Both the position numbers and the translations under genes were made by a program. A stretch of 64,000 nucleotides of DNA from Candidatus Eiseniibacteriota bacterium. Its GTDB lineage: Bacteria > Eisenbacteria > RBG-16-71-46 > JABDJR01. The stretch covers positions 366,491 to 430,490 of the forward strand of contig CAWANH010000028.1 of assembly GCA_963783375.1 (NCBI GenBank), given 5' to 3'. Under the pieces are notes generated by a model, which did not search any database, had not been told where the DNA came from, and saw only the letters and a list, made by a program, of their open reading frames with translations. Positions 4,245 through 62,300 of the stretch are shown one piece after another (the stretch's first letter is position 1; each line of letters opens with the position of its first letter).

Positions 4245-4253
4245 GACGACCTC

Positions 4254-6254: not shown

Positions 6255-6400
6255 GGGGGAAGCATAGCGCACCGGAGGGTGGGCGCCGCCGGCCGGGGGG
6301 CGGGCGCTTGGGCGGGCCGGCGCAACCGGCGACGGCCGGCGCCCGGAGGCGGAGACTCTTGAGCCGTTGTCCCGCCCCGCGCGCGGCCGATCCTCCCGGC

Positions 6401-41504: not shown

Positions 41505-44139
<2,635 letters not shown>

Positions 44140-44147
<8 letters not shown>

Positions 44148-45461: not shown

Positions 45462-47730
45462 CGCGTCGCCTCCTTCTCCGCCGCCTCCGCCGCGGTGAGC
45501 CCGGCCTCGCGCCAGGCGTGGAGCCGCTCCGGAGTGGCCGGGATGTCCGGGGCCACGATGCCGGTGGCGTTTTCCACCGCCTGGACGAAGGCGGGGGCGC
45601 CGCCGTCCATGGGAAGCTCCCCCACCCCCTTGGCCCCCGAGGGGCCCCCTTCCCACGGCCGTTCCAGGAGCTCCACATCCATCCGCGGGGTGTCCTTGAT
45701 GGTGGGGATGATGTAGGTGGCGAGGCGGTCGTTCAGGTAGCGGCCGTTCTCGAGCTTCATCTCCTCGAGGTAGGCCCACCCGATGGCCTGGAGGGTGCCG
45801 CCCTCGATCTGCCCGCGGCAGAGCGCGGGATGCACCACCTTCCCCACCTCGGTCACCACCGTGGCGGTCACCGGTCTCACCTCCAGGGTGTCGGGATCCA
45901 CCTCCACCTCGATCACGTCCGCCCCCCAGCCGTAGGTGGCGTAGGCCGTCCCCTGATAGGTCGTCTCGTCGAAGGTCTGCCAGGCCGGGGGCTCGTGGAG
46001 AATCGTGCGCTCCAGGTTCCCGTGGCCGGCGAACACGTCCTTGGCGCGGTCGCGAAAGCTCCCGAGGGCGCCGTCGCCCCCGATCACCCGGCCGCCCTCG
46101 ATCCGCAGCCCCTCGCCGAGCTTGGCCAGCACGTCGTCCCGGAGCCCGGCCACCGCCCGGGCGATGGTTCCCCCCACCACCATGGTGGTCCGCGACGCCA
46201 CCGTGGGCCCGGAGTCGGGCACCTTGCCGGTGTCGGCGTCGGGAAAGACCACGTCGTCGAGTTCGACCCCGGCGGCGTCGGCGGCGATCAGCGGGAGCAC
46301 GGTCATCGCCCCCTGCCCCATGTCGGTCATGGCGGTCAGCACCTCGATCCGCCCGTCGGCGGTGAGCCGCACGGTGACCGGGGAGCGCATGCGGTGCTCC
46401 CCCTGGCCGGTGAACCCGGCCCCGTGGAAGTACAGGCTGAGGCCGATCCCGCGTAGCGGCTCGCCGTCGGTCCGGCGGGCCCGCGCCTCCTCCAGCTCCA
46501 GCCAGCGCCGTCGGAAGCCGGTCTTCGCTTCCACCCCCTCCAGGCACAACCGGCCCGAGGCGTCGTCCTTCAGCACCTGCCCGGTGGCCAGGCTGTCTCC
46601 GGGCCCGAGCACGTTCCGCTCGCGGACGGTGTAGGGATCGATTCCCAGCGCGCGCCCGATCCGGTCCATGTGCCGCTCGGCGGCGAAGATCACCTGGGGG
46701 GCGCCGAAGCCCCGGAAGGCGGCGTTGGGGGCGGTGTTGGTGCGGAGCGCCCTCCCCCGGATACGAACGTGGGGACAGCGGTAGGCGCCGGTGGCGTGGA
46801 GCACCGCGCGCGACAGCACCACCGGCGACAGGGTCCGGTAGGCGCCCCCGTCCAGGTCCACCAGGACGTCCATGGCGTTCAGGCGGCCGTCCTTCATGAC
46901 CCCGGTCTTGATGCGAACCCGGCCGGGATGGCGCTTGGTGGTGGCCACGATGTCCTCGTGGCGATCGTAGACCAGCTTCACCGGGCGCCCGGCGGCCCGG
47001 GCCAGGAGCGCGGCGTGGATGGCGATGAGGCTCGGGTAGTCCTCTTTCCCTCCGAAGCCGCCGCCGATGGCCGCGGGGCGGACGTGGAGCTGGTTCTCGC
47101 CCAGATCGAAGACGTGCAGCAGCGCGTTGTGCACGTAGAACGGGCACTGCATCGATCCGATCATGATCCAGGGCGCCGTCCGGCTCGAACCAGGCCAGCA
47201 TCCCCTGGGGCTCGATGTAGATGTGCTCCTGGTGGCCGGTCCGGTACTCCCCCTCCACGATCGCGTCGGACCCGGCCAGGCCGCGCTCCACGTCGCCGTG
47301 GTTCATGGCCGAGCTCGTTCAGGGGCTCGACCGCTTCGGCCTCCTCCCAGGTGAGGACCGGGGGGAGCGGCTCGTACTCGACTTCGATGGCCTGAAGCGC
47401 GAGGCGGGCGTCCAGGCGGGTGGGCGCGGCGACCAGGGCCACCGCCTCGCCCACGTGGCGGACGACATCCGAGGCCAGGACCGGCCAGGTGTCGTCGAGG
47501 AGCTGGACGCCGTTCGCCCCGGGAAGGTCGCGGGCGGTCACGCAGACCGAGCCTTCCGGCGCCCGGTCGGGGCGCCACTTCAGGCTCTTGATCCGTGCGT
47601 GCGGATGGGGGGAGCGCAGGGTCGCTCCAAAGACCATGCCGGGGACGGTGAGGTCGTCGGTGTACCGGGCGCCGCCGGTGACCTTGGCCAGGCCGTCCGG
47701 CCTTGGGGGGCTTTCGCCGATCTTGATCAT
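45458..47730 (-). CDS. Molybdenum hydroxylase molybdopterin-binding large subunit (xanthine dehydrogenase / CO dehydrogenase family), with two apparent 1-nt frame breaks (about 47310 and about 47170).
   Basis: N-terminal piece MIKIGESPPRPDGLAKVTGGARYTDDLTVPGMVFGATLRSPHPHARIKS (ORF 47161..47730); middle piece NHGDVERGLAGSDAIVEGEYRTGHQEHIYIEPQGMLAWFEPDGAL (start of ORF 45006..47306); remainder IMIGSMQCPFYVHNALLHVFDLGENQLHVRPAAIGGGFGGKEDY... (ORF 45458..47164). The three pieces are collinear with XDH-family large subunits. Confidence 0.75.
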
Positions 47731-48080
47731 TCAGGCACTCCAACCCGCCCATTTCGGTACGGGGGATAAGAATACGGAATCGAGGGGCCGGGACGCCACT
47801 CCCAATGCCGGTGCGCCCCTCCGGAGCCGGAACGGCTCTGACGACGGCGCGGAGGCCGTTTCGAGGTCGCGATGCGCCGCCCGGCCCGCTCCGGGCTACC
47901 GTGGGAAGTCGATCGACAACCGTACCACTTCATCCGCGCCGGTTCAGGAAAATGGGGATATCCACGGGCGCGCAAGACGGGGGCGGGGAGGACCACCGCC
48001 TCGATCGCTGCCGGATCGGCGGTGCGACGGGGCCGCCCGGGTCCGGAGGTAATCCGGAGCCGAAAAAGCCATCGGGAGGG

Positions 48081-48109
48081 TTGACTCGGCCTGGTTATGG
48101 GCATATGCT
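48081..48109 (+). promoter_or_regulatory. Candidate sigma70 promoter: -35 TTGACT (48081-48086), 17-nt spacer, -10 TATGCT (48104-48109), with RBS AAGGAGAGG (48121-48129) before the ATG at 48132.
   Basis: Direct reading of the 400-bp divergent intergenic region between the Mo-hydroxylase operon (-) and the DUF134 gene (+). Confidence 0.45.
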
Positions 48110-48131
48110 TATAACCACGAAAGGAGAGGCG

Positions 48132-48716
48132 ATGCCCCGACCCCACAAGTGCCGGTTCGTCGGCCTCGATCCCACGGTCACCGTGTTCAAACCGCGCGGC
48201 GTGCCCTCGGGCGAGCTGACCGCGGTGGAACTCCCCCGGGACGAGCTGGAGGCGATTCGCCTCGCCGATCTCGAGGGCCTCTACCAGGATGAGGCGGCGG
48301 AGCGGATGGGCGTCTCCCGGGCCACCCTCGGCCGGCTGGTCCGTTCGGGCCGGGCCAAGGTGGCCGATGCCCTCGTGAACGGAAAGATGATCAGTTTCAA
48401 AGGTGGAGTGATTGCCATGACGACAGAAAGACGTTTCGAATGCGAAGTCTGCGGGGAGGCCTTCGAGGTCCCCCAGGGAACGGGAAGGCCGGCGGCCTGC
48501 CCCGCCTGCGGATCCGGCCGCTTTCACCGAACCGACGACGCCCCCGGGCGGGGTGCGCGCGGCCCCGGTCGAGGCGGCATGGGAGCCTCCGGGGGGGAGG
48601 AGGAGGAGGGCGGCGGATCCAGGCCCGCCGCCGGCGTCGCGACGGCACCGGCCGAAAGACCCGGGTCGCCGCCGTGGAAAAGGAGAAACCGTGAGAATTG
48701 CCGTGGCCTCGGATGA
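48132..48716 (+). CDS. DUF134 (UPF0251) family putative DNA-binding protein with a C-terminal Cys4 zinc ribbon and a disordered tail.
   Basis: MPRPHKCRFVGLDPTVTVFKPRGVPSGELTAVELPRDELEAIRLADLEGLYQDEAAERMGVSRATLGRLVRSGRAKVADALVNGK is the DUF134 signature (MPRPxKxR...FKPxG...EALRLxDxEGL...VSRxTF). Then CEVCGEAFEV...CPACGSGRF. The 3' end is uncertain and overlaps the next gene by 26 nt. Confidence 0.6.
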   Translation: MPRPHKCRFVGLDPTVTVFKPRGVPSGELTAVELPRDELEAIRLADLEGLYQDEAAERMGVSRATLGRLVRSGRAKVADALVNGKMISFKGGVIAMTTERRFECEVCGEAFEVPQGTGRPAACPACGSGRFHRTDDAPGRGARGPGRGGMGASGGEEEEGGGSRPAAGVATAPAERPGSPPWKRRNRENCRGLG

Positions 48717-49080
48717 CGAACGCGGAGTGGCCGGGCATCCCGGACGGGTGAGGGGATTCGTGATCCTGGCCCGCGAAGAAGGAGTCTTCCGCCGGGTCGA
48801 GTACCGGCTGAACCCCATGGCCCACCATCACGCGGAGCGGATGGCGGGGGGCGGGGACGATCACCACGGCCACCACGACCATGGGAGCCTGATCGGCGCC
48901 CTCGGCGACTGCGAGGCGCTGATCGTGGGGGGGATCGGCCCGCGGCTGGTCGACGACCTGAACGCCCACCGGATCGGGGTCTACGTGAGCGACGCGCTCA
49001 CCGTCGAGGAGGCGGCGGGCCGGCTGGCCGCCGGGCGGATCCAGCCCTTGCGTTCAGGCGGTGCCTGCCACGAACATTGA
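48691..49080 (+). CDS. Dinitrogenase Fe-Mo-cofactor-binding domain protein (NifX/NifB-C-terminal/NafY-like, PF02579).
   Basis: GTG 48691 preceded by AAAGGAGAAACC. VRIAVASDDERGVAGHPGRVRGFVIL...HHGHHDHGSLIGALGDCEALIVGGIGPRLVDDLNAHRIGVYV follows the Nitro_FeMo-Co domain pattern. 129 aa. Confidence 0.65.
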   Translation: MRIAVASDDERGVAGHPGRVRGFVILAREEGVFRRVEYRLNPMAHHHAERMAGGGDDHHGHHDHGSLIGALGDCEALIVGGIGPRLVDDLNAHRIGVYVSDALTVEEAAGRLAAGRIQPLRSGGACHEH

Positions 49081-49083
49081 ACC

Positions 49084-49572
49084 ATGACGCGGGACGTGGC
49101 CCCGAACACTTCGGGATTGTCCGACAGCGACGCCGAGGAACACCTCGCGGGGGAGACGATCGACTTTGCCCGGTCGTGTCACCCCGCCTGCTTCGCGTGC
49201 CGTGAGCCGGGCCGCGGGGGGCTGGGGCTCCGGTTCCGGACCCGGGCCGACGGCTCGGTGACCGCGCGGTTCCCGGACCCGTCGGGTTACCAGGGGTACC
49301 CGGAGCGCATGCACGGCGGCATCGTGGCCATGCTGGTCGATGCCGCCATGACCCATTGCCTGTTCGCCCGCCGCGTCCAGGCGGTGACTGCCCGCCTGGA
49401 CATCCGCTACCGCCGCCCGGTGAGTACCGAGTGCCCCATCCGGGTGACCGCGCGGTTGCTTCGCCGGCGGAAGCGTCTCTACGTCCTCGTCGCGGAGATC
49501 ATCCAGGAAGGCGTGGTGCGCGCGAGCGCCGAGGGCCGGTTCCTGGAGCCGCCCGGGGAGAGCCCGGCCTGA
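49084..49572 (+). CDS. PaaI / hotdog-fold thioesterase family protein.
   Basis: ...SCHPACFACREPGRGGLGLRF...GYPERMHGGIVAMLVDAAMTHCLF is the PaaI-type (4HBT_2) signature. 162 aa. Confidence 0.6.
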   Translation: MTRDVAPNTSGLSDSDAEEHLAGETIDFARSCHPACFACREPGRGGLGLRFRTRADGSVTARFPDPSGYQGYPERMHGGIVAMLVDAAMTHCLFARRVQAVTARLDIRYRRPVSTECPIRVTARLLRRRKRLYVLVAEIIQEGVVRASAEGRFLEPPGESPA

Positions 49573-49651: not shown

Positions 49652-50590
49652 CTACCGGTTGAGCAGCACCTTCCGGGTGGTGCGGACATCGCCGGCCCGG
49701 AGCTCCACGAAGTAGATCCCCGAAGGCGCGGCACCTCCTCCCGTGTCCCGCCCGTCCCAGCTCAGGGCGTGGGTCCCGGCGGAGAACTCCCGGTCGGCCA
49801 AGACGGCCACCCGGCGCCCGTCGATCCCGTACACCGTCACCGCGGCCGGACCGTCCGCGGCCAGGAAGAACTGGACCGAGGTGGCGCCGGCGAAGGGGTT
49901 CGGTTCGGGGTTCATGAGGAAGGCGGGAACGTTCGCGGCGATCTGGGGATCTCCGACCCCGGTCTGTCCGCAGTCGGTCCTCCGGTAGATCACGTAGAAG
50001 ATCCAGTCCCCGCCCAGGCCCTGGGAGCAGATGTCCTGCCAGCCGCCGGGGATGGCCTTGATCACGTTCTTTCCGCCCCCGGTGCAGCCGTTTCCGTCGT
50101 GGACCACGCTCCCCGCGTTCAGATCGTTGGCGTTGTCCGAGGCGAATTCCAGGGTCACGGTGAAGGGCCCCGAGTTCAGGATCACGTTTCCGACCTGGGA
50201 TTCCAGGTTGAACTCGTTGATGGCCCCGTCGGTGAGGACCGGGCCGAGGAGGTCGTAGAGCCTCGCTCCGGGATTGGGGAGCCCGGCGCCGTAGACGTTG
50301 ATGGCCTGTTCCAGGGTCTGGCCGGAGACGCCGAAATAGGATGCCCAGCCTACCCCGACCTTCAGGATCTCGATCGGATAGTCGCCGGCGGGGGCGTCCA
50401 GCACCACCCCGGCCTCCTCCCCGGCCACGAAGCAGGGGCAGACGACCTGGCCCCCACCCGAGTACCACTGAAGCGGCGCTTCGGGGGGGCAGGTCTGGGC
50501 CGAAGCGCCGGAAGCGGCGCCCAGGAAACCCAGGAGGCAGGGAAGAAGGAGGGCGGACGAGAGCCGGAGACCCGAGCGCAAGGAAGTCAT
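49652..50590 (-). CDS. Secreted protein (312 aa) with signal peptide and C-terminal T9SS type-A sorting domain; function unknown.
   Basis: ATG 50590: MTSLRSGLRLSSALLLPCLLGFLGAASGASA. C-terminus NPEPNPFAGATSVQFFLAADGPAAVTVYGIDGRRVAVLADREF...SGIYFVELRAGDVRTTRKVLLNR. Confidence 0.55.
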   Translation of the reverse strand: MTSLRSGLRLSSALLLPCLLGFLGAASGASAQTCPPEAPLQWYSGGGQVVCPCFVAGEEAGVVLDAPAGDYPIEILKVGVGWASYFGVSGQTLEQAINVYGAGLPNPGARLYDLLGPVLTDGAINEFNLESQVGNVILNSGPFTVTLEFASDNANDLNAGSVVHDGNGCTGGGKNVIKAIPGGWQDICSQGLGGDWIFYVIYRRTDCGQTGVGDPQIAANVPAFLMNPEPNPFAGATSVQFFLAADGPAAVTVYGIDGRRVAVLADREFSAGTHALSWDGRDTGGGAAPSGIYFVELRAGDVRTTRKVLLNR

Positions 50591-50792: not shown

Positions 50793-51932
50793 ATGACCCC
50801 ATCCGTTCCCCCCTCCGAGCCGGATCCCGGCGTCCGGCCCGAAAACGGCGCCGGCGCCCAGGACGCGATGAGCCTCCTGGACGCGGCCTCGTCCCAGACC
50901 CCGATCATCGACCCCCGACTCGACGCCCAGCGCCGGACCGCCGCCGATCCGAGCCTCCCCCTGGAGGACCGCCTGGAGGCCTACGAGGACATCATGGAGT
51001 CCGAGGTCGGGGACACCGTGCTCACCCGGGCCCGGAACATCGAGCGTGAGGTGGGCCTCCGCCAGATCTTCCTCAAGTTCGAGGGAGGAAACCCCACCGG
51101 GAGCCAGAAGGACCGCATCGCCTTCGCCCAGGTCCTCGACGCGATGCGCCGGGGCTTCGACGCCATCACCGTGGCCACCTGCGGAAACTTCGGCGCCGCG
51201 ATGGCGGTGGCCGCCGCCTTCGCCAACCTGCGCTGCATCATCCACATTCCGGTGAGCTACCACTCCCGGCGGGTGAAGGAGATCACCGACCAGGGAGCGG
51301 AAATCGTGCGGGTGGAGGGCGACTACGAGGCGGCGGTGCAGAAATCCCAGCGCGAGGCCGAGGAACACGATTACTACGACGCCAACCCCGGCGGGCCGAA
51401 CACGCCGCTCCAGCTTCGCGGCTACGGCGAGATCGCCTACGAGATCTACGACGACCTCCGCGACGCCCCCGCCGCGGTGGCCGTCCCGGTGTCCAACGGC
51501 ACCACCCTGGCCGGAATCTACCGGGGCTTCGTGAGCCTCCATCGCCGCGGGAAGACCTCGCGCATTCCGCGCATGATCGCCGGGTCCTCCTACAACAAGA
51601 ACCCCATCATCCAGGCCTGGCTGAAGAACCTCCCCGCCTGTGAGGACCTGAAGCCGGAATCGGTGAAGGAAACCCCGGTGAACGAACCCCTCATCAACTG
51701 GCACTCCATCGACGGGGACTACGCCCTGGAAGCGGTGCGGGGGACCGGGGGGTGGGCATCCTACGGGAGCGACAAGGCCATGCTCGCCGAGGCCCGCCGG
51801 ATCCGGGACAGCGAGGGGCTGAACGTGCTCCCCGCCTCCACCGCCGGGCTCCTGGGCCTCCTCGACCGTCACGCCCGCGAACCCCTGGCCCCCGACCGTT
51901 ACGTGGTCGTCCTCACCGGGAGAAAACAATGA
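50793..51932 (+). CDS. Fold-type II PLP-dependent enzyme (threonine-synthase / Trp-synthase-beta-like superfamily), 379 aa.
   Basis: ATG 50793 with AAGGAG 10 nt upstream. IFLKFEGGNPTGSQKDRIAFAQVLDAMRRG is the PLP-lysine motif (S-x-K-D-R). Its stop overlaps the next start (ATGA). Confidence 0.65.
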   Translation: MTPSVPPSEPDPGVRPENGAGAQDAMSLLDAASSQTPIIDPRLDAQRRTAADPSLPLEDRLEAYEDIMESEVGDTVLTRARNIEREVGLRQIFLKFEGGNPTGSQKDRIAFAQVLDAMRRGFDAITVATCGNFGAAMAVAAAFANLRCIIHIPVSYHSRRVKEITDQGAEIVRVEGDYEAAVQKSQREAEEHDYYDANPGGPNTPLQLRGYGEIAYEIYDDLRDAPAAVAVPVSNGTTLAGIYRGFVSLHRRGKTSRIPRMIAGSSYNKNPIIQAWLKNLPACEDLKPESVKETPVNEPLINWHSIDGDYALEAVRGTGGWASYGSDKAMLAEARRIRDSEGLNVLPASTAGLLGLLDRHAREPLAPDRYVVVLTGRKQ

Positions 51933-53023
51933 GCGGCTTCCCCGAGGGAAACGCGATCGTCTATTGCGAGGGGTCCTTCGGGACCCCCAACGGCAAGACC
52001 GCCCACGGGCTGGTCCGCCGCACCCGCCGCTACCGGGTGCTGTCGGTGGTGGACTCGGGGAACGCGGGGCGGGACGCCGGGGAGATCCTCGACGGTCGCC
52101 CGAACCGCGTCCCGGTCCTCGCATCGATCCCCGAGGCCGTCGCGCGCGCGGCGGAGGCCGGCCGGCCGGCCACCCACCTCGTGGTGGGCCTCGCTCCCGA
52201 CGGGGGGCGCCTGAGCCCGGCCGCCCGGCGCGATGTCCTGGCCGCGCTGGAGCGGGGACTCCATGTGGACTGCGGCCTCCACGACTTCCTGTCCGAGGAC
52301 CCCGAAGTCGAGTCGACGGCCATCGCGCACAACGCGCGGATCCGCGACGTCCGAAAGCCTCCGCCCCGGGACGAGCTCCACTTCTTCAGCGGCAGGATCG
52401 AGGAGGTGACCGCGTTCAAGATCGCGGTCCTCGGCACGGATTCCGCGGTGGGGAAACGCACCACCGCCTGGATCCTGGCCGACGCCTTTCGCGAAGCCGG
52501 CCGCTCGGTGGAGATGGTGGGGACCGGCCAGACCGCCTGGATGCAGGGGGTCGGCTACGGCATCATCCTCGACTCCCTGGTGAACGATTTCGTGGCCGGA
52601 GAGATCGAGCACGCGGTGTGGTCGGCGTGGAAGGAAACCGGGGCCGACGTGATCCTGATCGAGGGCCAGGGGAGCCTCATGAACCCGGCCTACCCCGGCG
52701 GGTACGAGATCCTGGCCGCCGGACGCCCCGACGCGGTGGTCCTCCAGCACGCCCCCGCACGTAAGGAATACGACGGGTTCCCGGGGTACCCGCTCCACCC
52801 GGTGGACACCCAGATCCAGGCCATCGAGCTCATCTCCGGAAGGCCGGTGGCCGCGGTGACCGTGAACCACGAGGGGCTGGCCGGCGACGCGATCCCCGCC
52901 GCCTGCGCCGAGATCACCCGGATCACCCACCTCCCCGCGGTGGACGTCCTCATGGACGGGGCCGGCGCGGTGGCGGGGGCCATCATGAACCGGTTCCCGG
53001 TTCCTGGAAAGGAACGTCGATGA
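51929..53023 (+). CDS. DUF1611-family protein (N-terminal Rossmann-like domain plus P-loop-like C-terminal domain; DgcN-like).
   Basis: ATG 51929: MSGFPEGNAIVYCEGSFGTPNGKTAHGLVRRTRRYRVLSVVD...KIAVLGTDSAVGKRTTAWILADAF...VILIEGQGSL is the conserved DUF1611 architecture. 364 aa. Confidence 0.6.
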   Translation: MSGFPEGNAIVYCEGSFGTPNGKTAHGLVRRTRRYRVLSVVDSGNAGRDAGEILDGRPNRVPVLASIPEAVARAAEAGRPATHLVVGLAPDGGRLSPAARRDVLAALERGLHVDCGLHDFLSEDPEVESTAIAHNARIRDVRKPPPRDELHFFSGRIEEVTAFKIAVLGTDSAVGKRTTAWILADAFREAGRSVEMVGTGQTAWMQGVGYGIILDSLVNDFVAGEIEHAVWSAWKETGADVILIEGQGSLMNPAYPGGYEILAAGRPDAVVLQHAPARKEYDGFPGYPLHPVDTQIQAIELISGRPVAAVTVNHEGLAGDAIPAACAEITRITHLPAVDVLMDGAGAVAGAIMNRFPVPGKERR

Positions 53024-55449
53024 GCGAGGACCGCCGCCGCGGAACCGAACGCCGGAAGCTCTCCCGGTCCGCCTCCCCGGGGCGGCGGAACTACGATTCG
53101 CCCGGCGCCGAATCCGACCCGCTCAGGACCCTCGTCGTCCTCGATCGCCTCGAGGTAGGTCCCCCCAAGGTGGAGACGCGCCGGGTGGTCACGCCCTATA
53201 CGGTGCGGGCGGGAAAGACCGTGGATACCTTCGAGTTCGTCTACCGGTACGAGGAGGACGTGTTCGACCCCTCCGAGGCCGGCTCGGTGAACCTGGCCGC
53301 CATGCTCACCGCCCAGCTCGCCCTCAACTACGGCCTCTTCGCCCGGGAGATCGCCTTCGCCGGCCCCTTCGACCGCCACGACCGGCGCTTCCTCACCGAC
53401 ATGGCCCGGAACACCGCCCGCGAGATCTACGTGAAGAAGTTCCTGGAGCCGAACCCCTTCCTGACCGGGGCGGCGGCGGAGCTTCCGGCGGTGGAGCGGG
53501 AGAGCTACCTGGCCGCCGAACTCGAGTTCCCGGACGCCGAGGAGCCCGGGCGGAAAGGCGGCCCGCGAGCGGAGCCGTGGAGGAGCGACCCCGCGCGCCA
53601 TGCCGTCCTCTCCAGCGGCGGGAAGGACAGCCTCCTCTCCTTCGGGCTCCTCCGGGAGATGGGGAAGGAACCGCACCCGATCTTCGTGAACGAATCGGGG
53701 AAGCACTGGTTCACCGCCTTGAACGCCTACCAGGCCCAGGCCGCGCGCTATTCGGAAACCGCGCGGGTCTGGACCAACTCCGACCGGCTCTTCGCCTGGA
53801 TGGCCCGCCGGCTCCCCTTCATTCGCGAGGACTTCCAGAAGCTCCGCTCCGATGAGTACCCGGTGCGGCTCTGGACAGTGGCGGTGTTCCTGTTCGGTGC
53901 GCTCCCGCTGCTCCGCAAACGCGGGATCGGACGTATCGTTATCGGGGACGAGTACGATACCTCGCGGAAGGTCACCACCCGGGGGATTCCCCACTACGAC
54001 GGCCTCTACGACCAGAGCGCCTACTTCGATCATGCCCTCTCCCGCTACTACCGGCTGAAAGGCTGGGGGCTCTCCCAGTTCTCCATCCTCCGTCCCCTTT
54101 CGGAGATGCTGATCGAGAAGACCCTGGTCGAGCGCTATCCCGACCTGCAGAAGGACCAGGTCTCCTGTCACGCCGCCCACAAGGAGGAAGACCGGGTCCA
54201 TCCCTGCGGACAGTGCGAGAAGTGCCGGCGGATCGTGTCGATGCTCACCGCCTTCGAGGCCGACCCGGGGCGCTGCGGCTACTCCCCGGAACAGATCCAG
54301 CGGTGCCTCAAATGGGTGGCGGAGAAGGGCGTGCACCAGGTCAGCGGCGACGCCGAACACCTGGCCTTTCTCCTGGAATCCAGCGGGAAGATCGGCGGAC
54401 CATCGCCCGGTCTCCCCCCGGCCCGCGAACACCCCGAGATCATGCAGCTCCGCTTCGACCCCGACCGCTCACCGGTGACGGCGATCCCGGTGGACCTGCG
54501 CGAGCCCCTGTACCGCATCCTGCTGGAGCATGCCCGGGGCGCGGTGCGAAAGAGCGGCCGGGTGTGGATCGACTACGATCTCCTCGCCGATCCCGCGCTC
54601 ATGCGGCCCTACCGGTTCGAGTCGCCGGGGAAGGGAACCGTGGAGATCTCGGGGAAGGACGCCGGGCCCCGCGCCTATCTCCTGGGCGAGCTCACCTGGC
54701 CCCAGGCCGAAACCCTGCTCAAGACGGTGGACGTGGCGCTCCTCCCGGTGGGCTCCATCGAACAGCACGGACCCCACCTGCCGCTCGACACCGACGCCTT
54801 CGACGCGGACTACCTCTCGCGGGAGGTGGCCAAGGCCTGCAGCGACCCCAAGCCGCTGGTGCTTCCCCTCATCCCCTACGGGGTCTCCTACCATCACGAT
54901 GATTTCAAGGGGACCCTGAGCATCAGTCCCGAGACCCTTTCCCGGCTGGTGTTCGAGATCGGAATGAACGCGGCCCGGAACGGCATCGCCAAGCTGGTGA
55001 TCGTGAACGGCCACGGCGGGAACGCCCCCAGCCTCCACTTCGCCGCCCAGATGATCAACCGCGACGCCCACATCTTCACCTGTGTGGATACCGGCGAGTC
55101 GAGCGATCAGGAGCTGGAGGCGATGAGCGAGACCCAGAACGACGTCCATGCCGGGGAGATCGAGACCAGCACCACGCTGGCCGTGCGGCCGGGCCTGGTG
55201 GATCTCAAGCGGGTCAAGAAGTTCATCCCCCGCTTCTCCAACGACTACCTGGAGTTCAGCTCGGGCCGGAGCGTGGGATGGTACGCCCGCACGGCCAAGA
55301 TCTCCTCCAGCGGGGTGATGGGCGACCCCACCAAGGCGAGCCGGGAGAAGGGGGAGAAGATGTGGGCGGTCATGATCAAGAACCTGGTCGAGTTGGTGGA
55401 GGACATCAAGGGGATGAGCCTCGACGAGATCTACCACTCCCGGTTGTGA
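53020..55449 (+). CDS. Multidomain enzyme (809 aa): N-terminal domain of unknown function, a QueC-like PP-loop ATP pyrophosphatase domain with a Cys-rich Zn site, and a C-terminal creatininase-family (creatinine amidohydrolase / MptB/ArfB-like) hydrolase domain.
   Basis: ATG 53020 overlaps the DUF1611 stop (ATGA). PP-loop AVLSSGGKDSLLSFGL (SGGxDS). VSCHAAHKEEDRVHPCGQCEKCRR resembles the QueC C-terminal zinc motif. Creatininase signatures VALLPVGSIEQHGPHLPLDTDA, LVIVNGHGGN, HAGEIETS. Confidence 0.6.
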   Translation: MSEDRRRGTERRKLSRSASPGRRNYDSPGAESDPLRTLVVLDRLEVGPPKVETRRVVTPYTVRAGKTVDTFEFVYRYEEDVFDPSEAGSVNLAAMLTAQLALNYGLFAREIAFAGPFDRHDRRFLTDMARNTAREIYVKKFLEPNPFLTGAAAELPAVERESYLAAELEFPDAEEPGRKGGPRAEPWRSDPARHAVLSSGGKDSLLSFGLLREMGKEPHPIFVNESGKHWFTALNAYQAQAARYSETARVWTNSDRLFAWMARRLPFIREDFQKLRSDEYPVRLWTVAVFLFGALPLLRKRGIGRIVIGDEYDTSRKVTTRGIPHYDGLYDQSAYFDHALSRYYRLKGWGLSQFSILRPLSEMLIEKTLVERYPDLQKDQVSCHAAHKEEDRVHPCGQCEKCRRIVSMLTAFEADPGRCGYSPEQIQRCLKWVAEKGVHQVSGDAEHLAFLLESSGKIGGPSPGLPPAREHPEIMQLRFDPDRSPVTAIPVDLREPLYRILLEHARGAVRKSGRVWIDYDLLADPALMRPYRFESPGKGTVEISGKDAGPRAYLLGELTWPQAETLLKTVDVALLPVGSIEQHGPHLPLDTDAFDADYLSREVAKACSDPKPLVLPLIPYGVSYHHDDFKGTLSISPETLSRLVFEIGMNAARNGIAKLVIVNGHGGNAPSLHFAAQMINRDAHIFTCVDTGESSDQELEAMSETQNDVHAGEIETSTTLAVRPGLVDLKRVKKFIPRFSNDYLEFSSGRSVGWYARTAKISSSGVMGDPTKASREKGEKMWAVMIKNLVELVEDIKGMSLDEIYHSRL

Positions 55450-55459
55450 GGAGGCGGCG

Positions 55460-56530
55460 GTGAAGATCATCCGGGTGGAGGCCGAGGCGGTCTCCATGCG
55501 TCTCTCCGAGCCCTACTCGATCGCCTACGAATCGGTGGATACCGCGGTCAACGTCATGCTCCGGGTCGAGACCGACACCGGCCTCGTCGGTCTCGGGTGT
55601 TCGGCCCCCGACCAGCCGGTGACCGGCGAGACCCCGGAGTCGGTGCTCCGGGCGGTGGACGGGATCGCCGCTCCCGCGCTCCGGGGCGAGGATCCCCTGT
55701 GCTGGACCCGGCTCCTCGAGCGTCTGCGGGAACCGATGGCGATCCGGCCCGCGGCCCTGGCCGGGGTGGACATGGCCCTCTTCGACCTCCTGGGGAAGGC
55801 GGCGGGGATCGGGGTATGGAAGATCCTGGGAGGATACCGCGACCGCATCGAGACCTCGGTCACCATCGGGATCCTCCCCGAGGCGGAGACCGTGGCCCGG
55901 GCCCGGGCCCGCGCCGCCGAGGGTTTCCGCCGGATCAAGATGAAGGGAGGCCTCGACGTGGAGCTCGACATCGCCCGGGTGCGGCGGGTCCGCGAGGCCC
56001 TGGGGGACGGGGTGGAGCTCCGGTTCGACGCCAACCAGGGCTACTCGGTGGACCAGGCGCTCCGGTTCGTGGACGGAACCAAGGCGGCCCGGCTGGAGAT
56101 CCTGGAACAACCCACCCCCCGAGGCGAGCCCGACCTCATGGGACGGGTGACCCGCGAGGCCGCGGTCCCGGTCATGGCCGACGAGAGCCTGATGACCCTC
56201 CGCGACGTGTACAACCTCGCCCGTCGCGAGCTCGCCGACATGGTGAACGTGAAGCTCATGAAGGTGGGGGGGATCGCCGAGGCGCTCCAGATCAACGGGG
56301 TGGCCCGTTCGGCCGGGCTCGAGGTCATGGTGGGCTGCATGGACGAGGCCGCCCTGGGCATCGCGGCGGGTCTTCACTTCGCCCTGTCCCGCCCCAACGT
56401 GGAGTACGCCGACCTGGACGGACACCTGGGGCTCATCGGGGATCCCAGCGAGGGAGCGGTGATCCTCCGTGACGGCACCCTCTACCCGAGCCAGGGTCCC
56501 GGGTTCGGCTGGGAGCCGGCCGGACCCTGA
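55460..56530 (+). CDS. Enolase-superfamily enzyme of the mandelate racemase/muconate lactonizing (MR/MLE) subgroup, dipeptide-epimerase / N-acyl-amino-acid-racemase-like.
   Basis: GTG 55460 preceded by GAGGAGG. Catalytic signatures RRIKMKGG (KxK), RFDANQGY (metal Asp), EILEQP (Glu), VMADESL (Asp), VKLMKVGG (second Lys). 356 aa. Confidence 0.8.
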   Translation: MKIIRVEAEAVSMRLSEPYSIAYESVDTAVNVMLRVETDTGLVGLGCSAPDQPVTGETPESVLRAVDGIAAPALRGEDPLCWTRLLERLREPMAIRPAALAGVDMALFDLLGKAAGIGVWKILGGYRDRIETSVTIGILPEAETVARARARAAEGFRRIKMKGGLDVELDIARVRRVREALGDGVELRFDANQGYSVDQALRFVDGTKAARLEILEQPTPRGEPDLMGRVTREAAVPVMADESLMTLRDVYNLARRELADMVNVKLMKVGGIAEALQINGVARSAGLEVMVGCMDEAALGIAAGLHFALSRPNVEYADLDGHLGLIGDPSEGAVILRDGTLYPSQGPGFGWEPAGP

Positions 56531-59303: not shown

Positions 59304-62300
59304 TCACCGAAGCACCACCCGGGCCGCGGCCACCGGCCGCTCGTCGACGACCAGGCGCAGGAAGTAGACCCCGCGGGCGATCCCCACCCCGCGAAGATCG
59401 ATGGAGACGGTGTCGGTTCCCGCCTCGAGCGGCCCGCTGAAGGGGACCGCGACTTCCCGCCCCTGGAGGTCGTACATCACGAGTCGCGCGGTTCCCCCGC
59501 GCTCCAGGTTCACCTCCACGCGACCGGCGCCGGTGAGCGGGTTGGGAAAGACCCGGAGCCGGACCGTCGGCGGGGGCGGCGTTCCTTCCGTTCCCACCTG
59601 GGTGTCGGAAGCGATGCGGATGATCCTCGCGGTGGCGTTTCCGCCGCTGGTGTCGGTGAAGGGCTCGCCGGAGCCGGTGTCCACCACGAAGAGCGCGCCG
59701 TCGGTCCCGATCGCCAGGCAGTCGCTGGAGAAGAGGTTCCCGAAGCCCGAGGCAAGCACGCTGATCGCCCCCTGGGGGGTCACCCGGAGCACCCGCTCCA
59801 GGGCGATGTCGGCCACCAGGAGATCTCCCCCGAAGCCCCCGCCGGTGTCCACCAGGAGCGCGGACGCTCCTCCGAGAAGGGCGGCATCCTGGACGAAGGG
59901 GCTCAGGGTTCCGGCGGCGTCCACGGTCAGGATGGCCCCCGGTCCGTCGATGCTCGACGCGTAGGCGGTGAGATCGGGGTCGGCGACCAGGAGCTTCTCG
60001 CCCCCACCGAAGAGCCCCCATCCCGGGGTCACCCCTTCGAACCCGTTCACCGGGGAGGCGAAGGGGACGAAGCCCGTCCCCGGCTCGTAGCGCTCCACCC
60101 GGTTCGAGGCGCTGGTGCCGAGATACGGGTACCCCCCGAAGACCCCGGGGGGAAGCGAGGCCAGCGCCCCGGTGTTGGTGCTGCTCGTCCCGGGGGCGAT
60201 CTGGCTCACCGCCCCGGCCGCGGTCACCCGGAGGAGTCCGTTCACGTCGGCCACCAGGAGATCGCCCCCCCACTGTCCGCCGTGGTCGAAGTCCAGCCCC
60301 TCGGGTTTCCCCAGCAGGGCATCGGTGGCGAGCGTCGTCACCCCGCCCACCGGGGTCACGCGAAGGATGCGGTGCCCGCCGGCGTCCCCCACGAAGAAGT
60401 CGCTCCCCCAGGCCCCGCCCTCGCCGAGGGCGATTCCCTCCGGGGTACCGAGGGCGCTCCCCGAGGCCAGAACCTCGGCATGATAGCCGGGGGCCACGGT
60501 GAGCCCGGGCGCTCCCCCCGCGATCACGAAGAACGTCTCGAAGGCGGCGGTGGGGTGGTCGCCGCCCGAAGCGGCGGTGGCGGACGGCGCCAGCCGCACG
60601 GTCAACCGGGTGCCGTCGGCGATGTCGGCGGAGGGGGTGAAGGTCACCGCGGAGTCCGCCTCCCAGGAGAAGCTCCCGGAGACCGGCGGGTCCAGGCCGA
60701 GCGCCGCCTCGACCGACGCGTGATCCATGCTCCGGTTGAAGCCCAGCCGGATGGGCGGGCGGGAGAGGCTCACGGTATCGCCGTGGGCGGGAGACTGGCT
60801 CCAGACCACCGGGGTCTCGGGCACGACCGCCGCGGACCGCACCAGAACCCGCGCCGAGCGGGCGGGCACGCTCACGTTCACCACCCCCGCCGCCTGCGCG
60901 TTCCGGCTGAAGGCCGGGTCGAGGAGATCGGCCAGCGCTTCCCCCGACGACCATCCGGTGGCCAGCGCCCCGCTCGACCGGACCGAGGTCTCGGTGTTGA
61001 TCACCACCACCACGTTCTCGCTCGCGCCGGACCGGCGGAAGGCGTAGATCCCGGGCGAGCCCTCGCTGGCCAGCTCGGTGAACCCCCCGGTCCGGAGCGC
61101 GTCGTAGTGGGCGCGGATGTCCAGCAACCGCCGGGTGGTGAGGTAGAGGGGGTGGGTCATGTTGAAGTTGTCGCCCACGCTGGGGCCGTAGTCCCACTCC
61201 CCGTCCCACATGTCCTCGCGGTCGTAGGGATCGCCCCCGCCGTCGAACCCCTGCTCCGTCCCCTGGTAGACGCAGGGCACCCCGCGGGTGAGGAGGAGGA
61301 AGTCCAGCGCGGTCCGGAGCTTCGACCAGTCCTGGCTCGCCACCCCCGCACTCAGGAACCGCGACACGTCGTGGTTGTCGAGGAAGCCCACCAGCCGGTC
61401 GCGGGCCGCCGGGTCGTAGTCCCCCAGGTTCGCGTAGCGGTTGGTGATCTCATCGGTCGGCCCCCCCTGCCCGAAGACGTACCTCATGGTGTAGTGCATC
61501 GGGAAATAGAGGACGGAGTTGAGGGCGAAAGCGCCTCCGGCCTCGGTGCCGGTGTAGGAGCCGCACTTGGCGTCGCTCCCGTCGAACACCTCGCCGTAGA
61601 AGAAGAAGTTGCTCTTGCCGAGGCTGTCGGCGTGGGCCCGGACCGCCGGGGTCCAGGTCTGCCAGAACGCCATGTCCACGTGCTTCACGGTGTCGATCCG
61701 GAACCCGTCGCAGTCGGTGACGTCGATCAGCCACCGGGTGGCGTTCACCAGGGCGTTTCGCACCGTGGGGTCCTCGGTCTTCAGGTCGTCGAGGCCGGCC
61801 AGCTCCCCCAGCACCTGGTCGGGATCCACGTAGTTCTGGATCTCCCCGTTGTTGTGGAACCAGGCCAGGTTGTTGAAGGGGGCGGCGGGGCGGGTCGAGC
61901 TTCGCCACTTGAGGACGTAGGGGCTCGGGTTGTCGTGGAAGGTCGGATACCCCGAGGTCGTCGAGTAGATCATGTTCCCCATGTGATTGGTCACGATGTC
62001 GATGATGAGATACATGCCGCGGGCGTGGAGGGCGTCGGCCAGGGCGCGGAGCTCGATCTGGGTCCCGAAGTGGGGGGCGATGGCCTCGAAGTCGCGGGCG
62101 GCGTAGCCGTGGTACTCCCCGTTGGCGTTCAGGACCACCGGGCTGATCCACACCGCCTTGAACCCCAGGGACTGGATGTAGTCGAGCTTCTGGAGGACCC
62201 CGGCGAAATCCCCGCCGTGGACGTTTCCCGGGCGCCAGGTGCCGGTGGTGGATCCGGGGTCGTAGCTCCCCTCGGCGTTGTTGTTGGAGGGATCCCCGTC

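What the first reader, a model, noticed from the sequence alone, without database searches (positions are those of the whole stretch)
50793..56530. Translationally coupled cluster: PLP enzyme – DUF1611 (DgcN-like) – QueC-like PP-loop::creatininase fusion – enolase-superfamily racemase/epimerase
Four same-strand genes are tightly linked, with ATGA overlaps at 51929 and 53020 and a 10-nt gap before 55460. DUF1611 proteins paired with an MR/MLE enolase-superfamily racemase are the hallmark of the DgcN/DgcA D-glutamate (N-acetyl-D-amino-acid) conversion module. Here the pair is interrupted by an 809-aa protein fusing an unknown N-domain, a QueC-like ATP-pyrophosphatase domain (SGGKDS, Cys-rich Zn site) and a creatininase-family amidohydrolase domain. 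I do not recognise this architecture. A fold-II PLP enzyme (SQKDR) leads the operon. Together these suggest an uncharacterised pathway acting on a D- or N-acyl-amino acid or a cyclic amide (lactam, hydantoin or pterin-like) substrate, with adenylation (PP-loop), ring opening (creatininase fold), racemisation and a PLP-dependent beta/gamma-replacement or elimination step.
Basis: partly seen in the sequence, partly recalled or inferred. Interest (0 to 1): 0.65.

Follow-up and report, generated by a model that had tools for sequence, protein, structure and literature searches.

The report
Conserved uncharacterised four-enzyme amino-acid cassette
Four tightly coupled genes, including a new ATP-using enzyme domain fused to a creatininase-type hydrolase, form a cassette kept intact in hundreds of bacterial species, with a three-gene core also in Thermoplasma-type archaea; its product is unknown, so it marks an undescribed piece of amino-acid or dipeptide metabolism.

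Summary
Four + strand genes (50793-56530) are translationally coupled. They encode a threonine-synthase-like PLP enzyme, a DUF1611 protein, an 809-aa fusion and an enolase-superfamily epimerase. The fusion is a real single ORF. Residues ~30-535 form a PP-loop domain (SSGGKDS, Cys4 motif) with no Pfam model. It has a QueC/QatC/Cap9 fold and a faint match to the MurL model. Residues 557-793 are a creatininase domain with all metal ligands. More than 100 full-length homologs share 62-69% identity, and at least 419 species genomes encode a relative. Of 59 loci with room on both sides, 55 keep the same four-gene order, across about a dozen phyla. PALP–DUF1611–PP-loop also forms an operon in Thermoplasmatales, without the creatininase or epimerase. 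A rare variant instead fuses DUF1611 to the PP-loop domain. The DgcN/DgcA reading is not supported. Both scores are far below cut-off, and the epimerase has the dipeptide-epimerase DxD motif, with Glu where YkfB has Arg24. No publication or curated family covers the cassette. My best guess, at low to moderate confidence, is biosynthesis of a small dipeptide-like amide by activation, adenylation-driven amide formation, hydrolysis or ring chemistry, and C-terminal epimerisation.

The parts
50793..51932 (+). Gene 1: fold-type-II PLP enzyme (379 aa), threonine-synthase-like, with PLP lysine in GSQKDR and an N-terminal extension of ~65 aa that the archaeal orthologs lack
   Evidence: Pfam PALP 188 bits. 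NCBIfam PRK06381 'threonine synthase' 417 bits against a cut-off of 266, but TIGR00260 thrC only 105 against 167. The nearest PDB entries are threonine synthases at ~100 bits. Median identity to orthologs in 70 loci is 67%.
51929..53023 (+). Gene 2: DUF1611 protein (364 aa) with a Rossmann-like N-domain and a P-loop C-domain carrying the conserved GTDSAVGKRTT motif
   Evidence: Pfam DUF1611_N 81 bits and DUF1611 214 bits. DgcN model 146.5 bits, below the cut-off of 480. Nearest PDB entries are 2g0t (TM0796), 2obn and 7xrj. The P-loop is conserved in 71 orthologs. The ATGA overlap with gene 1 is shown.
53020..55449 (+). Gene 3: 809-aa fusion protein (PP-loop N-domain :: creatininase domain)
   Evidence: It is a single ORF. 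More than 100 full-length homologs share 62-95% identity. AF2 full-length model has pLDDT 74. The ATGA overlap with gene 2 is shown.
53110..54624 (+). N-domain of gene 3 (aa ~31-535). It has an alpha/beta N-subdomain (31-180), a PP-loop Rossmann core, a Cys4 ribbon and a helical C-subdomain. It represents a new family without a Pfam model.
   Evidence: The N-domain-only AF2 model has pLDDT 89.9 and pTM 0.91. Foldseek hits are QatC 9y02_B at E 1.5e-5, QueC 2pg3/3bl5, YcfA, Cap9 9nto_B and TtuA, plus phage QueC proteins. Pfam gives only a faint QueC match of 12.6 bits. The NCBIfam MurL model scores 20.8 bits on the window protein and 37.9 bits (E 7e-10) on family member P0256. Only 453 representatives reach E<=1e-3 among 1.84 billion proteins.
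53611..53631 (+). PP-loop ATP-pyrophosphatase motif SSGGKDS (aa 198-204)
   Evidence: Translation. The motif is invariant in bacterial and archaeal family members.
54166..54225 (+). Cys-rich motif C383-x12-C396-x2-C399-x2-C402, a QueC-like zinc-ribbon pattern
   Evidence: Translation. All four Cys are invariant. The canonical QueC motif is C(x)8CxxCxxC (PMC13329287).
54688..55398 (+). Creatininase-family domain (aa 557-793) with a complete binuclear-metal and catalytic set: E581, H583, D592, H665, H710, E715
   Evidence: Pfam Creatininase 239.7 bits. MftE model 152 bits against 172, and creatininase model 98 against 235. Alignment to P. putida creatininase matches EQHGxH...D, NGH and HxGxxETS. 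These residues are invariant in 25 homologs. Foldseek hits 3no4 and 1q3k.
55460..56530 (+). Gene 4: enolase-superfamily dipeptide-epimerase-like protein (356 aa). It has the KxK pair, a strand-6 Lys and the DxD pair (ADLDGH), with Glu24 where B. subtilis YkfB has Arg24.
   Evidence: Pfam MR_MLE_N and MR_MLE_C. The best PDB matches are dipeptide epimerases 3rit at 237 bits, 1jpm/1tkk at 224 and 3jva at 224, against N-acylamino-acid racemase 2zc8 at 110. Conservation in 68 orthologs is shown. A 10-nt spacer with GGAGG precedes the GTG start.

Best explanation
This is a self-contained biosynthetic cassette that builds a small amino-acid-derived amide, most likely a dipeptide-like compound with a D-configured C-terminal residue.

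Shown:
- Four translationally coupled enzymes keep a fixed order across about a dozen phyla.
- Gene fusions vary (PP-loop::creatininase here, DUF1611::PP-loop elsewhere), which ties these three activities into one pathway.
- The catalytic motifs of all five domains are intact.
- The epimerase carries the free-ammonium (DxD) signature of dipeptide epimerases.

Inferred order of steps:
1. DUF1611 activates or protects an amino-acid precursor by acyl or phosphoryl transfer. It is a relative of the acetyl-CoA-dependent N-acetyltransferase DgcN, and its P-loop domain resembles that of BioD (from memory).
2. The threonine-synthase-like PLP enzyme makes or remodels the amino-acid building block by beta/gamma-replacement or elimination.
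3. The PP-loop domain adenylates a carboxylate (ATP to AMP + PPi). An amine then displaces AMP to give an amide, as in QueC, Cap9 and QatC.
4. The fused creatininase domain hydrolyses or closes an amide in the same intermediate, either by deprotection or by ring chemistry.
5. The enolase-type epimerase inverts the alpha-carbon of the C-terminal residue of the resulting free-amine dipeptide-like product. Glu24 replaces the Arg24 that binds the Glu side chain in YkfB, so this residue's side chain is probably not acidic and may be basic.

Thermoplasmatales would stop after step 3. The physiological role may be stress protection (a solute or protectant), but this is only hinted at by the neighbouring genes.
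For: Cassette integrity: 55 of 59 loci are collinear, and all four proteins share 52-72% identity whatever the phylum.

No conserved transporter, peptidase or regulator accompanies the cassette. The flanks vary, and the commonest neighbours are YitT/DUF2179 membrane proteins (14 of about 58 loci), MscS, HSP20, Usp, GroEL and sigma-54 activators.

Rosetta-stone fusions link the activities. The PP-loop::creatininase fusion is found in more than 100 homologs. The DUF1611::PP-loop fusion, followed by a separate creatininase and MR_MLE, is found in P0124.

The core triad forms an operon in the wall-less Thermoplasma volcanium and in Picrophilus, which argues against peptidoglycan recycling.

The PP-loop and Cys4 motifs are invariant, and the fold is that of QueC, QatC and Cap9. 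These are carboxylate-adenylating amide formers whose amine can be ammonia or a protein N-terminus (PMC13279940).

The cassette contains no other ligase type, yet its epimerase has the dipeptide-type DxD and KxK/K set.

The creatininase metal site is complete.

The PLP enzyme belongs to the threonine-synthase branch, which is typically biosynthetic.
Against: No substrate or product has been identified, and every step assignment is by family analogy. DUF1611 has only one characterised relative (DgcN), and that enzyme is catabolic. The weak sequence link of the PP-loop domain is to MurL, which is an epimerase and not a ligase. Some variants lack parts: L059 has no DUF1611 or epimerase; L012 and L040 have no epimerase; the archaeal operon has neither creatininase nor epimerase. 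The five-step order therefore cannot be universal. The stress-gene neighbourhood is loose, each partner occurring in 24% of loci or fewer. The full-length model is too uncertain in the creatininase part (pLDDT below 50 in several segments) to judge whether the two active sites communicate.
Confidence: 0.35

Rival explanations
1. ATP-driven stereoinversion machine. DUF1611 N-acylates an L-amino acid. The PP-loop domain, like MurL, adenylates the alpha-carboxylate of the N-acyl amino acid and epimerises it unidirectionally. The fused creatininase domain hydrolyses the activated or cyclic intermediate, or removes the acyl group, and so releases a D-amino acid. That D-amino acid is used by the PLP enzyme or incorporated into a dipeptide.
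For: The only sequence-level link of the N-domain to a characterised enzyme is the MurL model: 20.8 bits on the window protein, 19 bits on P0124 and P0133, and 37.9 bits (E 7e-10) on P0256. MurL uses ATP, releases AMP and acts on the C-terminal residue of an N-acylated Glu (PMC5808125, PMC8788868). DgcN N-acetylates an amino acid before racemisation, according to the NCBIfam names and PMC10845958. The DUF1611::PP-loop and PP-loop::creatininase fusions fit a sequence of acylate, activate, then hydrolyse.
Against: All MurL scores are far below the 700-bit cut-off and cover only part of the model. No MurD2 or other Mur ligase is among the recurrent neighbours. The bacterial cassette would then contain two epimerases. 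Every solved relative by fold (QueC, Cap9, QatC) forms an amide and does not epimerise.
Confidence: 0.2
2. Catabolic or salvage module for D-amino-acid-containing peptides (necromass or muropeptide fragments), an elaborated DgcN/DgcA-type pathway. The creatininase domain would act as a peptidase, the epimerase would convert L-X-D-Y to L-X-L-Y, DUF1611 would acylate a D-amino acid, and the PLP enzyme would deaminate the product.
For: DUF1611 and MR/MLE are the two families of the Dgc pathway. The characterised dipeptide epimerases YkfB and YcjG are thought to serve peptidoglycan recycling (PMC5808125). The best NCBIfam hit of the creatininase domain is the peptidase MftE. Most carriers are MAGs, many with sediment- or groundwater-type isolate labels. 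Sigma-54 activators lie upstream in 7-15 loci.
Against: The DgcN and DgcA cut-offs are missed by a wide margin. The epimerase has Glu24 instead of Arg24, which argues against L-Ala-D/L-Glu as substrate. No conserved transporter or peptidase is a neighbour. The core triad is present in wall-less Thermoplasmatales without the epimerase. An AMP-forming activation step is unusual in a degradative route.
Confidence: 0.15
3. Purine, 7-deazapurine or pterin-type heterocycle chemistry. The QueC-like domain would amidate or conjugate a carboxylated heterocycle. The creatininase domain, like the formamide hydrolase ArfB, would open or deformylate a ring.
For: All the closest folds (QueC, Cap9, QatC, YcfA) act on guanine-like substrates. 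The creatininase family includes ArfB. JGI annotates some homologs as '7-cyano-7-deazaguanine synthase'.
Against: The N-domain fails the QueC Pfam model (12.6 bits against 22). No QueD, QueE, FolE or TGT family appeared among the families listed for the two nearest genes on each side. ArfB is the weakest creatininase-family hit at 34 bits. The three partner enzymes all belong to amino-acid or peptide families.
Confidence: 0.07
4. Ordinary threonine metabolism. Gene 1 would be a genuine threonine synthase and DUF1611 a non-orthologous homoserine kinase.
For: The NCBIfam PRK06381 'threonine synthase' cut-off is exceeded (417 against 266). DUF1611 has a conserved Walker-A-like P-loop.
Against: The TIGR00260 thrC cut-off is not reached. 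In the alignment to T. thermophilus ThrC, the positions I recall as phosphate-binding (T85, T88, S155, R160; from memory) are C, F, P and an invariant Q. This reading does not explain the PP-loop, creatininase and epimerase partners. It also does not explain why the cassette is patchily distributed.
Confidence: 0.03

Closest known systems
DgcN-DgcA D-glutamate conversion pair (NCBIfam NF041892, NF042940)
   Same: It uses the same two protein families, DUF1611 and an MR/MLE enolase-superfamily racemase, encoded together. The logic is plausibly the same: modify the amino group, then invert the alpha-carbon.
   Different: Scores are 146.5 against 480 and 162.8 against 400 bits. The two genes are separated by an 809-aa gene. 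The epimerase keeps the free-ammonium DxD motif of dipeptide epimerases. The conserved partners here, a PLP enzyme and a PP-loop domain, are not among the components I know for the Dgc pathway.
[quoted passage not shown]
   Same: It is the only characterised enzyme with detectable, though weak, sequence similarity to the N-domain family. It is AMP-forming and acts on the C-terminal carboxylate of an N-acylated amino acid (PMC5808125).
   Different: Similarity is 20-38 bits against a 700-bit cut-off. There is no MurD2 or cell-wall context. The family is present in wall-less archaea. Here the domain is fused to a creatininase domain and paired with DUF1611 and a PLP enzyme.
QueC family PP-loop enzymes (QueC, Cap9, QatC)
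   Same: They share the SGGxDS PP-loop, a C-terminal CxxCxxC-containing Cys4 motif and the overall fold. The chemistry is carboxylate adenylation followed by attack of an amine.
   Different: The N-domain fails Pfam PF06508. It carries an extra ~150-aa N-subdomain and a ~120-aa C-subdomain, and the spacing between the first two Cys is 12 residues rather than 8. No 7-deazaguanine or defence genes are nearby, and PADLOC gives no hit.
Dipeptide epimerases of the enolase superfamily (B. subtilis YkfB 1tkk, M. capsulatus 3rit, E. faecalis 3jva)
   Same: They are the best structural and sequence matches at 224-237 bits. The KxK pair, the strand-6 Lys, the metal ligands and the DxD ammonium-binding pair are conserved.
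   Different: Scores are below the L-Ala-D/L-Glu epimerase equivalog cut-offs (217 against 500 and 89.5 against 343). The specificity position Arg24 is a conserved Glu. The genomic context is not peptidoglycan recycling.
Creatininase family (creatinine amidohydrolase, MftE, IolN, ArfB)
   Same: There is a strong Pfam match with the complete binuclear metal site and the catalytic His.
   Different: The domain is below the cut-off of every characterised equivalog. It is fused to a PP-loop domain. I found no description of that architecture in the searched literature.

Membership tests
DgcN/DgcA D-glutamate module | DUF1611 protein reaches the DgcN equivalog score (480 bits) | tested here: not met
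   146.5 bits
DgcN/DgcA D-glutamate module | MR/MLE protein reaches the DgcA equivalog score (400 bits) | tested here: not met
   162.8 bits. The L-Ala-D/L-Glu epimerase models and PDB dipeptide epimerases score higher.
DgcN/DgcA D-glutamate module | Racemase acts on an N-acyl (blocked) amino group | tested here: inconclusive
   The DxD pair that binds the free alpha-ammonium group in YkfB is invariant in 68 orthologs (bioRxiv 10.1101/2022.05.01.490185). This argues against an N-acyl substrate, but no assay was possible.
Dipeptide epimerase (enolase superfamily) | KxK on strand 2, Lys on strand 6 and the three metal ligands | tested here: met
   IKMKGG, NVKLMK, FDANQG, LEQP and MADES align with YkfB K160/K162 and K268 and are conserved.
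Dipeptide epimerase (enolase superfamily) | DxD motif at the end of strand 8 | tested here: met
   ADLDGH aligns with YkfB D321-F-D323 and is invariant.
L-Ala-D/L-Glu epimerase specifically | Arg24 in the capping loop, which binds the Glu side chain, and the equivalog score | tested here: not met
   Glu24 is conserved in at least 85% of orthologs. NF041118 scores 217 against 500 and PRK15129 scores 89.5 against 343.
QueC family (PF06508) | SGGxDS PP-loop | tested here: met
   SSGGKDS at aa 198-204 is invariant.
QueC family (PF06508) | C(x)8CxxCxxC zinc motif | tested here: inconclusive
   The motif here is C(x)12CxxCxxC, with all four Cys invariant. The canonical spacing is taken from PMC13329287.
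QueC family (PF06508) | Pfam gathering score (22 bits) | tested here: not met
   12.6 bits, covering aa 339-404 only.
QueC family (PF06508) | Fold similarity to solved QueC, Cap9 and QatC structures | tested here: met
   Foldseek E-values run from 1.5e-5 to 1.2e-3, with TM-score up to 0.7 normalised to the target.
MurL | NCBIfam NF041275 cut-off (700 bits) | tested here: not met
   20.8 bits on the window protein. The best score in the family is 37.9 bits, on P0256.
MurL | Adjacent MurD2-type Mur ligase | tested here: not met
   No Mur ligase family is among the 25 most frequent Pfam families listed for the two nearest genes on each side (110 downstream and 126 upstream ORFs scanned).
MurL | ATP-dependent, AMP-forming unidirectional epimerisation | not testable with these tools
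   This needs an enzyme assay.
Creatininase family (PF02633) | Pfam gathering score and the binuclear metal ligands with catalytic His | tested here: met
   239.7 bits against 31.3. E581, H583, D592, H665, H710 and E715 align with the creatininase EQHGxH..D, NGH and HxGxxETS motifs and are invariant.
MftE / creatinine amidohydrolase equivalogs | Equivalog cut-offs (172 and 235 bits) | tested here: not met
   152.4 and 97.9 bits.
Threonine synthase | Curated model cut-offs | tested here: inconclusive
   PRK06381 is met (417 against 266). TIGR00260 thrC (105 against 167) and four other threonine synthase models are not met.
Threonine synthase | Substrate-phosphate-binding residues of T. thermophilus ThrC (T85, T88, S155, R160; residue roles recalled from memory) | tested here: not met
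   The aligned residues are C, F, P and Q, and the Q is invariant in 68 orthologs.
Anti-phage defence systems (QatABCD, CBASS type IV) | Match to PADLOC models | tested here: not met
   None of the four proteins gives a hit.

The most novel reading that the evidence does not exclude
The cassette encodes an undescribed pathway shared by many anaerobic and sediment bacterial phyla, with its core also in Thermoplasmatales archaea. It is centred on a new PP-loop enzyme family, the missing link between QueC-type amide ligases and the orphan epimerase MurL. That enzyme would use ATP to AMP to forge or stereo-invert an amino-acid carboxylate while handing the intermediate directly to a fused metal-dependent amidohydrolase. 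The product would be a previously unknown D-residue-containing dipeptide-like metabolite, for example a stress protectant.
Probability: 0.3. Interest if true: 0.8.

Novelty: new variant of a known kind. Interest (0 to 1): 0.6.

Why it matters
Every domain belongs to a known enzyme superfamily. The combination, however, is strictly conserved across at least 419 species genomes and is not covered by any curated family or by any paper I could find. The PP-loop domain has no Pfam model at all. Solving the cassette would assign function to four large groups of 'creatininase family', 'threonine synthase', 'NAD-dependent epimerase/dehydratase family' and 'muconate cycloisomerase' annotations, which are probably all misleading. 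It would give DUF1611 a second characterised role. It could also clarify the mechanism and ancestry of MurL, which has been described as lacking known domains. Cultured carriers exist (Desulfosarcina variabilis, D. alkanivorans, strain NaphS2, Thermoplasma volcanium, Picrophilus), so the question can be tested directly.

Tried and rejected
- Frameshift or mis-assembly origin of the 809-aa ORF: rejected, because it is full length in more than 100 homologs and 80 genomes.
- Defence-system membership, suggested by the QatC and Cap9 fold hits: rejected, with no PADLOC hit and no Qat or CBASS partners.
- Riboswitch or other RNA leader that might name a ligand: no Rfam hit in the 64-kb window, and only one tRNA in 8 related loci.
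- General sigma-54 promoter upstream of gene 1: found in only 4 of 69 loci.
- A fixed fifth gene such as a transporter or regulator: none found. The census of the two nearest genes on each side shows only loose recurrences.
- Homolog search from the MurL-positive member P0256, intended to reach named MurL proteins: it returned only 6 proteins, none named.
- The searches aimed at this architecture (DUF1611; QueC-like + creatininase; COG3367/PF07755/TM0796/PRK06381; creatininase + epimerase + threonine synthase) found no description of it.
- The primary DgcN paper and the Lukk and Kalyanaraman dipeptide-epimerase papers were not held.
- Genuine threonine synthase: considered unlikely.

Full report
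**What is in the sequence.** The window has about 70% G+C. Between 50793 and 56530 there are four + strand ORFs. ATGA overlaps occur at 51929 and 53020. A TGA at 55447-55449 is followed by a 10-nt GGAGG-containing spacer and a GTG start at 55460. An AAGGAG precedes the ATG at 50793. The upstream gene is divergent: a secreted protein with a FlgD_ig domain. The downstream gene is convergent: a fatty-acid desaturase. The four genes therefore form a self-contained unit.

**Domain content.** Gene 1 is a fold-type-II PLP enzyme (PALP 188 bits). Gene 2 has both DUF1611 domains. Gene 3 (809 aa) matches Pfam only through a creatininase domain at aa 557-793 (240 bits). Gene 4 has MR_MLE_N and MR_MLE_C. 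The NCBIfam results refine this:

| Gene | Model | Score (bits) | Cut-off (bits) |
|---|---|---|---|
| 1 | PRK06381 'threonine synthase' | 417 | 266 |
| 1 | TIGR00260 thrC | 105 | 167 |
| 2 | DgcN | 146.5 | 480 |
| 3, C-domain | MftE | 152 | 172 |
| 3, C-domain | creatininase | 98 | 235 |
| 3, C-domain | IolN | 67 | 245 |
| 3, C-domain | ArfB | 34 | 180 |
| 4 | L-Ala-D/L-Glu epimerase (NF041118) | 217 | 500 |
| 4 | DgcA | 163 | 400 |

The MurL model also gives a faint hit of 20.8 bits at aa 333-414 of gene 3.

**The fusion protein.**
- The N-terminal 550 residues have no Pfam family. At E<=10 only a 12.6-bit QueC match appears, over the Cys-rich region.
- An AlphaFold2 model of residues 30-534 is confident (pLDDT 89.9, pTM 0.91).
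- Foldseek places this model with QatC (9y02_B, E 1.5e-5), QueC (2pg3, 3bl5), YcfA, Cap9 (9nto_B) and TtuA, and with phage QueC proteins.
- The PP-loop SSGGKDS (aa 198-204) and four cysteines (C383, C396, C399, C402) are invariant in bacterial and archaeal relatives. So are further family motifs: NESGxHW, GDE[FY]D, HYxGxYDQS and QxSCH.
- The C-terminal domain aligns with Pseudomonas creatininase at all six metal-binding or catalytic positions (E581, H583, D592, H665, H710, E715). These residues are invariant in 25 homologs.
- Both halves therefore look catalytically competent.
- The full-length model (pLDDT 74) is too uncertain in the creatininase part to say how the two active sites face each other.

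**Is the fusion real and conserved?** Yes. A word-indexed search found 2,804 hits. The best 120 are proteins of 770-839 aa covering 95-100% of the query at 62-95% identity. The 80 best come from these groups, according to the record titles:
- Desulfobacterota, including cultured Desulfosarcina variabilis, D. alkanivorans and strain NaphS2
- Acidobacteriota (Aminicenantes, Thermoanaerobaculia)
- Planctomycetota
- Gemmatimonadota
- Latescibacterota
- Krumholzibacteriota
- Zixibacteria
- KSB1
- Calditrichota
- Ignavibacteria
- others

I ran tblastn of the four window proteins against these loci. Of 59 loci with room on both sides, 55 carry PALP–DUF1611–fusion–MR_MLE in the same order. Median identities are 67, 66, 62 and 63%. 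Identity is about the same whatever the phylum, which suggests horizontal spread of a strongly constrained module.

**What is the core?** An exhaustive profile-free search with the N-domain alone found only 453 representatives at E<=1e-3 among 1.84 billion proteins. These include several kinds of relative:
- Stand-alone forms of 460-520 aa.
- A DUF1611::N-domain fusion (P0124, 855 aa).
- Distant N-domain::creatininase fusions (P0149, P0155).

Their gene contexts are informative:
- P0133: DUF1611–N-domain–MR_MLE, without a creatininase.
- P0145: PALP and DUF1611 lie near the N-domain gene.
- P0124: PALP, then the DUF1611::N-domain fusion, then a separate 267-aa creatininase, then MR_MLE.
- P0172 and its relatives are Thermoplasmatales proteins annotated 'metal-binding protein'. 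They occur in Thermoplasma volcanium GSS1, Picrophilus, Ferroplasma and Acidiplasma.
- In T. volcanium and Picrophilus the operon is PALP (316 aa)–DUF1611 (344 aa)–N-domain (466-470 aa), with no creatininase or epimerase gene in the 17-kb stretches read.
- The archaeal proteins are about 40%, 46% and 26-29% identical to the window proteins.

The conserved core is thus PALP + DUF1611 + PP-loop domain. The creatininase and the epimerase are additions found in bacteria. The alternative fusion partitions tie DUF1611, the PP-loop domain and the creatininase to consecutive steps of one pathway. A few variants lack parts: L059 has no DUF1611 or epimerase, and L012 and L040 have no epimerase.

**The epimerase.**
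- Its closest solved relatives are dipeptide epimerases: 3rit at 237 bits, YkfB 1jpm/1tkk at 224 and 3jva at 224. N-acylamino-acid racemase 2zc8 scores only 110.
- The gapless alignment with YkfB conserves the KxK pair, the strand-6 Lys and the D-x-D pair (ADLDGH).
- Here the DxD pair is invariant in 68 orthologs, whereas position 24 is a conserved Glu.
- The substrate is therefore probably a dipeptide-like molecule with a free amino terminus and a non-acidic, possibly basic, C-terminal side chain. It is unlikely to be N-acetyl-glutamate or L-Ala-D/L-Glu.

**The PLP enzyme.** It aligns with Thermus threonine synthase at about 100 bits and has the PLP lysine in GSQKDR. The positions I recall as binding the substrate phosphate (T85, T88, S155, R160; residue roles from memory) are C, F, P and an invariant Q. 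A genuine threonine synthase is therefore unlikely.

**Surroundings.**
- There is no riboswitch or other Rfam element.
- A sigma-54 promoter pattern is present in only 4 of 69 loci.
- There is no PADLOC hit.
- A census of the two nearest genes on each side found no fixed partner.
- Downstream, DUF2179-containing membrane proteins (YitT or DUF5698 type) occur in 14 of about 58 loci. MscS and NIF3 follow with 4 each, then HSP20 and Usp with 3 each.
- Upstream, sigma-54 activators occur in 7 loci, Ser/Thr kinases in 5 and GroEL in 4.
- Clustering of all flank ORFs also showed CorA in 10 loci and MgtE in 7.
- The flavour is stress and ion homeostasis, but each association is weak. No transporter or peptidase travels with the cassette.

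**Interpretation.** The facts above favour a biosynthetic module working on ordinary intracellular precursors:
- It is self-contained.
- It is translationally coupled.
- It contains a threonine-synthase-branch PLP enzyme and an AMP-forming activating enzyme.
- It is present in wall-less archaea.

The cassette holds a dipeptide-type epimerase but no ATP-grasp, NRPS or Mur-type ligase. The simplest reading is that the PP-loop domain makes the amide bond. QueC-family enzymes do this with ammonia or with a protein N-terminus (PMC13279940). DUF1611 and the PLP enzyme would prepare the building block. The fused creatininase would then deprotect or ring-open the product, and the epimerase would invert its C-terminal residue. 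I give this 0.35.

The main rival, at 0.2, takes the weak MurL link at face value. In that reading the N-domain is an ATP-driven epimerase of an N-acyl amino acid made by DUF1611, and the creatininase releases the product. A Dgc-like catabolic role gets 0.15. It is weakened by the sub-threshold scores, by Glu24, by the lack of transport genes and by the archaeal triad. Heterocycle chemistry (0.07) and ordinary threonine metabolism (0.03) are minor options. The remainder is 'something else'.

**Novelty.** The searches aimed at this architecture found no description of it, of DUF1611 in this context, or of a QueC-like::creatininase fusion. A 2026 survey of PF06508 does not include this family. 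Each domain belongs to a known superfamily, so I rate the cassette as a new variant of a known kind, with an unmodelled PP-loop family at its centre. It is experimentally tractable because cultured carriers exist.

Noticed in passing
window 41505-47730 (- strand): Two xanthine-dehydrogenase-family molybdoenzyme gene sets lie here. The first is an 875-aa protein with [2Fe-2S], hammerhead and both MoCo-binding domains, next to an FAD_binding_5/CO_deh_flav_C subunit. In the second set the hammerhead domain (47161-47730) and the MoCo-binding domains (45458-47164) are separate ORFs overlapping by 4 nt, so it is either split or frameshifted.
   Followed up: partly
window 47805-49572 (+ strand): A DUF134/zinc-ribbon protein, a NifX/NifB-like Nitro_FeMo-Co domain protein and a 4HBT thioesterase lie just upstream of the cassette region. 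None recurs next to the cassette in other genomes.
   Followed up: partly
window 49652-50590 (-) and 59304-62438 (-): A small secreted protein and a 1044-aa alpha-amylase-like protein both end in a similar FlgD_ig / T9SS-type C-terminal tail (...FPNP...YDLQGR.V...). This hints at a Fibrobacteres-Chlorobi-Bacteroidetes-group or Gemmatimonadota-like host. The Pfam check was run only on the small protein.
   Followed up: partly
window 1-64000: The whole 64-kb window gives no Rfam match at gathering threshold, not even a tRNA.
   Followed up: yes
L086 417-5373 and L087 328-5284: A distant N-domain::creatininase fusion (P0149, 781 aa, about 38% identical by tblastn) lacks PALP, DUF1611 and MR_MLE neighbours. 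It is instead followed by a 421-aa protein with no Pfam match and a CofD-family protein. This looks like a second, different cassette built on the same fusion.
   Followed up: partly
L096 2599-3999: P0271, from the branch of the N-domain family that scores best with the MurL model, sits in an 11.5-kb contig made only of short same-strand ORFs without Pfam hits. This looks phage-like.
   Followed up: no
JGI contig of P0124 (no DNA held), genes at 32-6262: This is an alternative fusion partition of the same pathway: PALP, then a DUF1611::N-domain fusion (855 aa), then a separate 267-aa creatininase, then MR_MLE, followed by an Ion_trans_2/TrkA potassium channel.
   Followed up: yes
L001-L084, downstream flanks: DUF2179-containing membrane proteins (YitT or DUF5698 type) are the most frequent neighbour of the cassette, in 14 of about 58 loci. 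Mg2+ transporters (CorA in 10 loci, MgtE in 7) and MscS channels also recur. The function of YitT/DUF2179 proteins is itself unknown.
   Followed up: partly
L094 5966-12523 and L095 6017-9916: In Thermoplasmatales the PALP–DUF1611–PP-loop operon is always followed by a convergent Tsr3 (Ribo_biogen_C) gene. In T. volcanium a D-aminoacyl-tRNA deacylase (PF04414) lies two genes further on. This may be mere synteny within the order.
   Followed up: no
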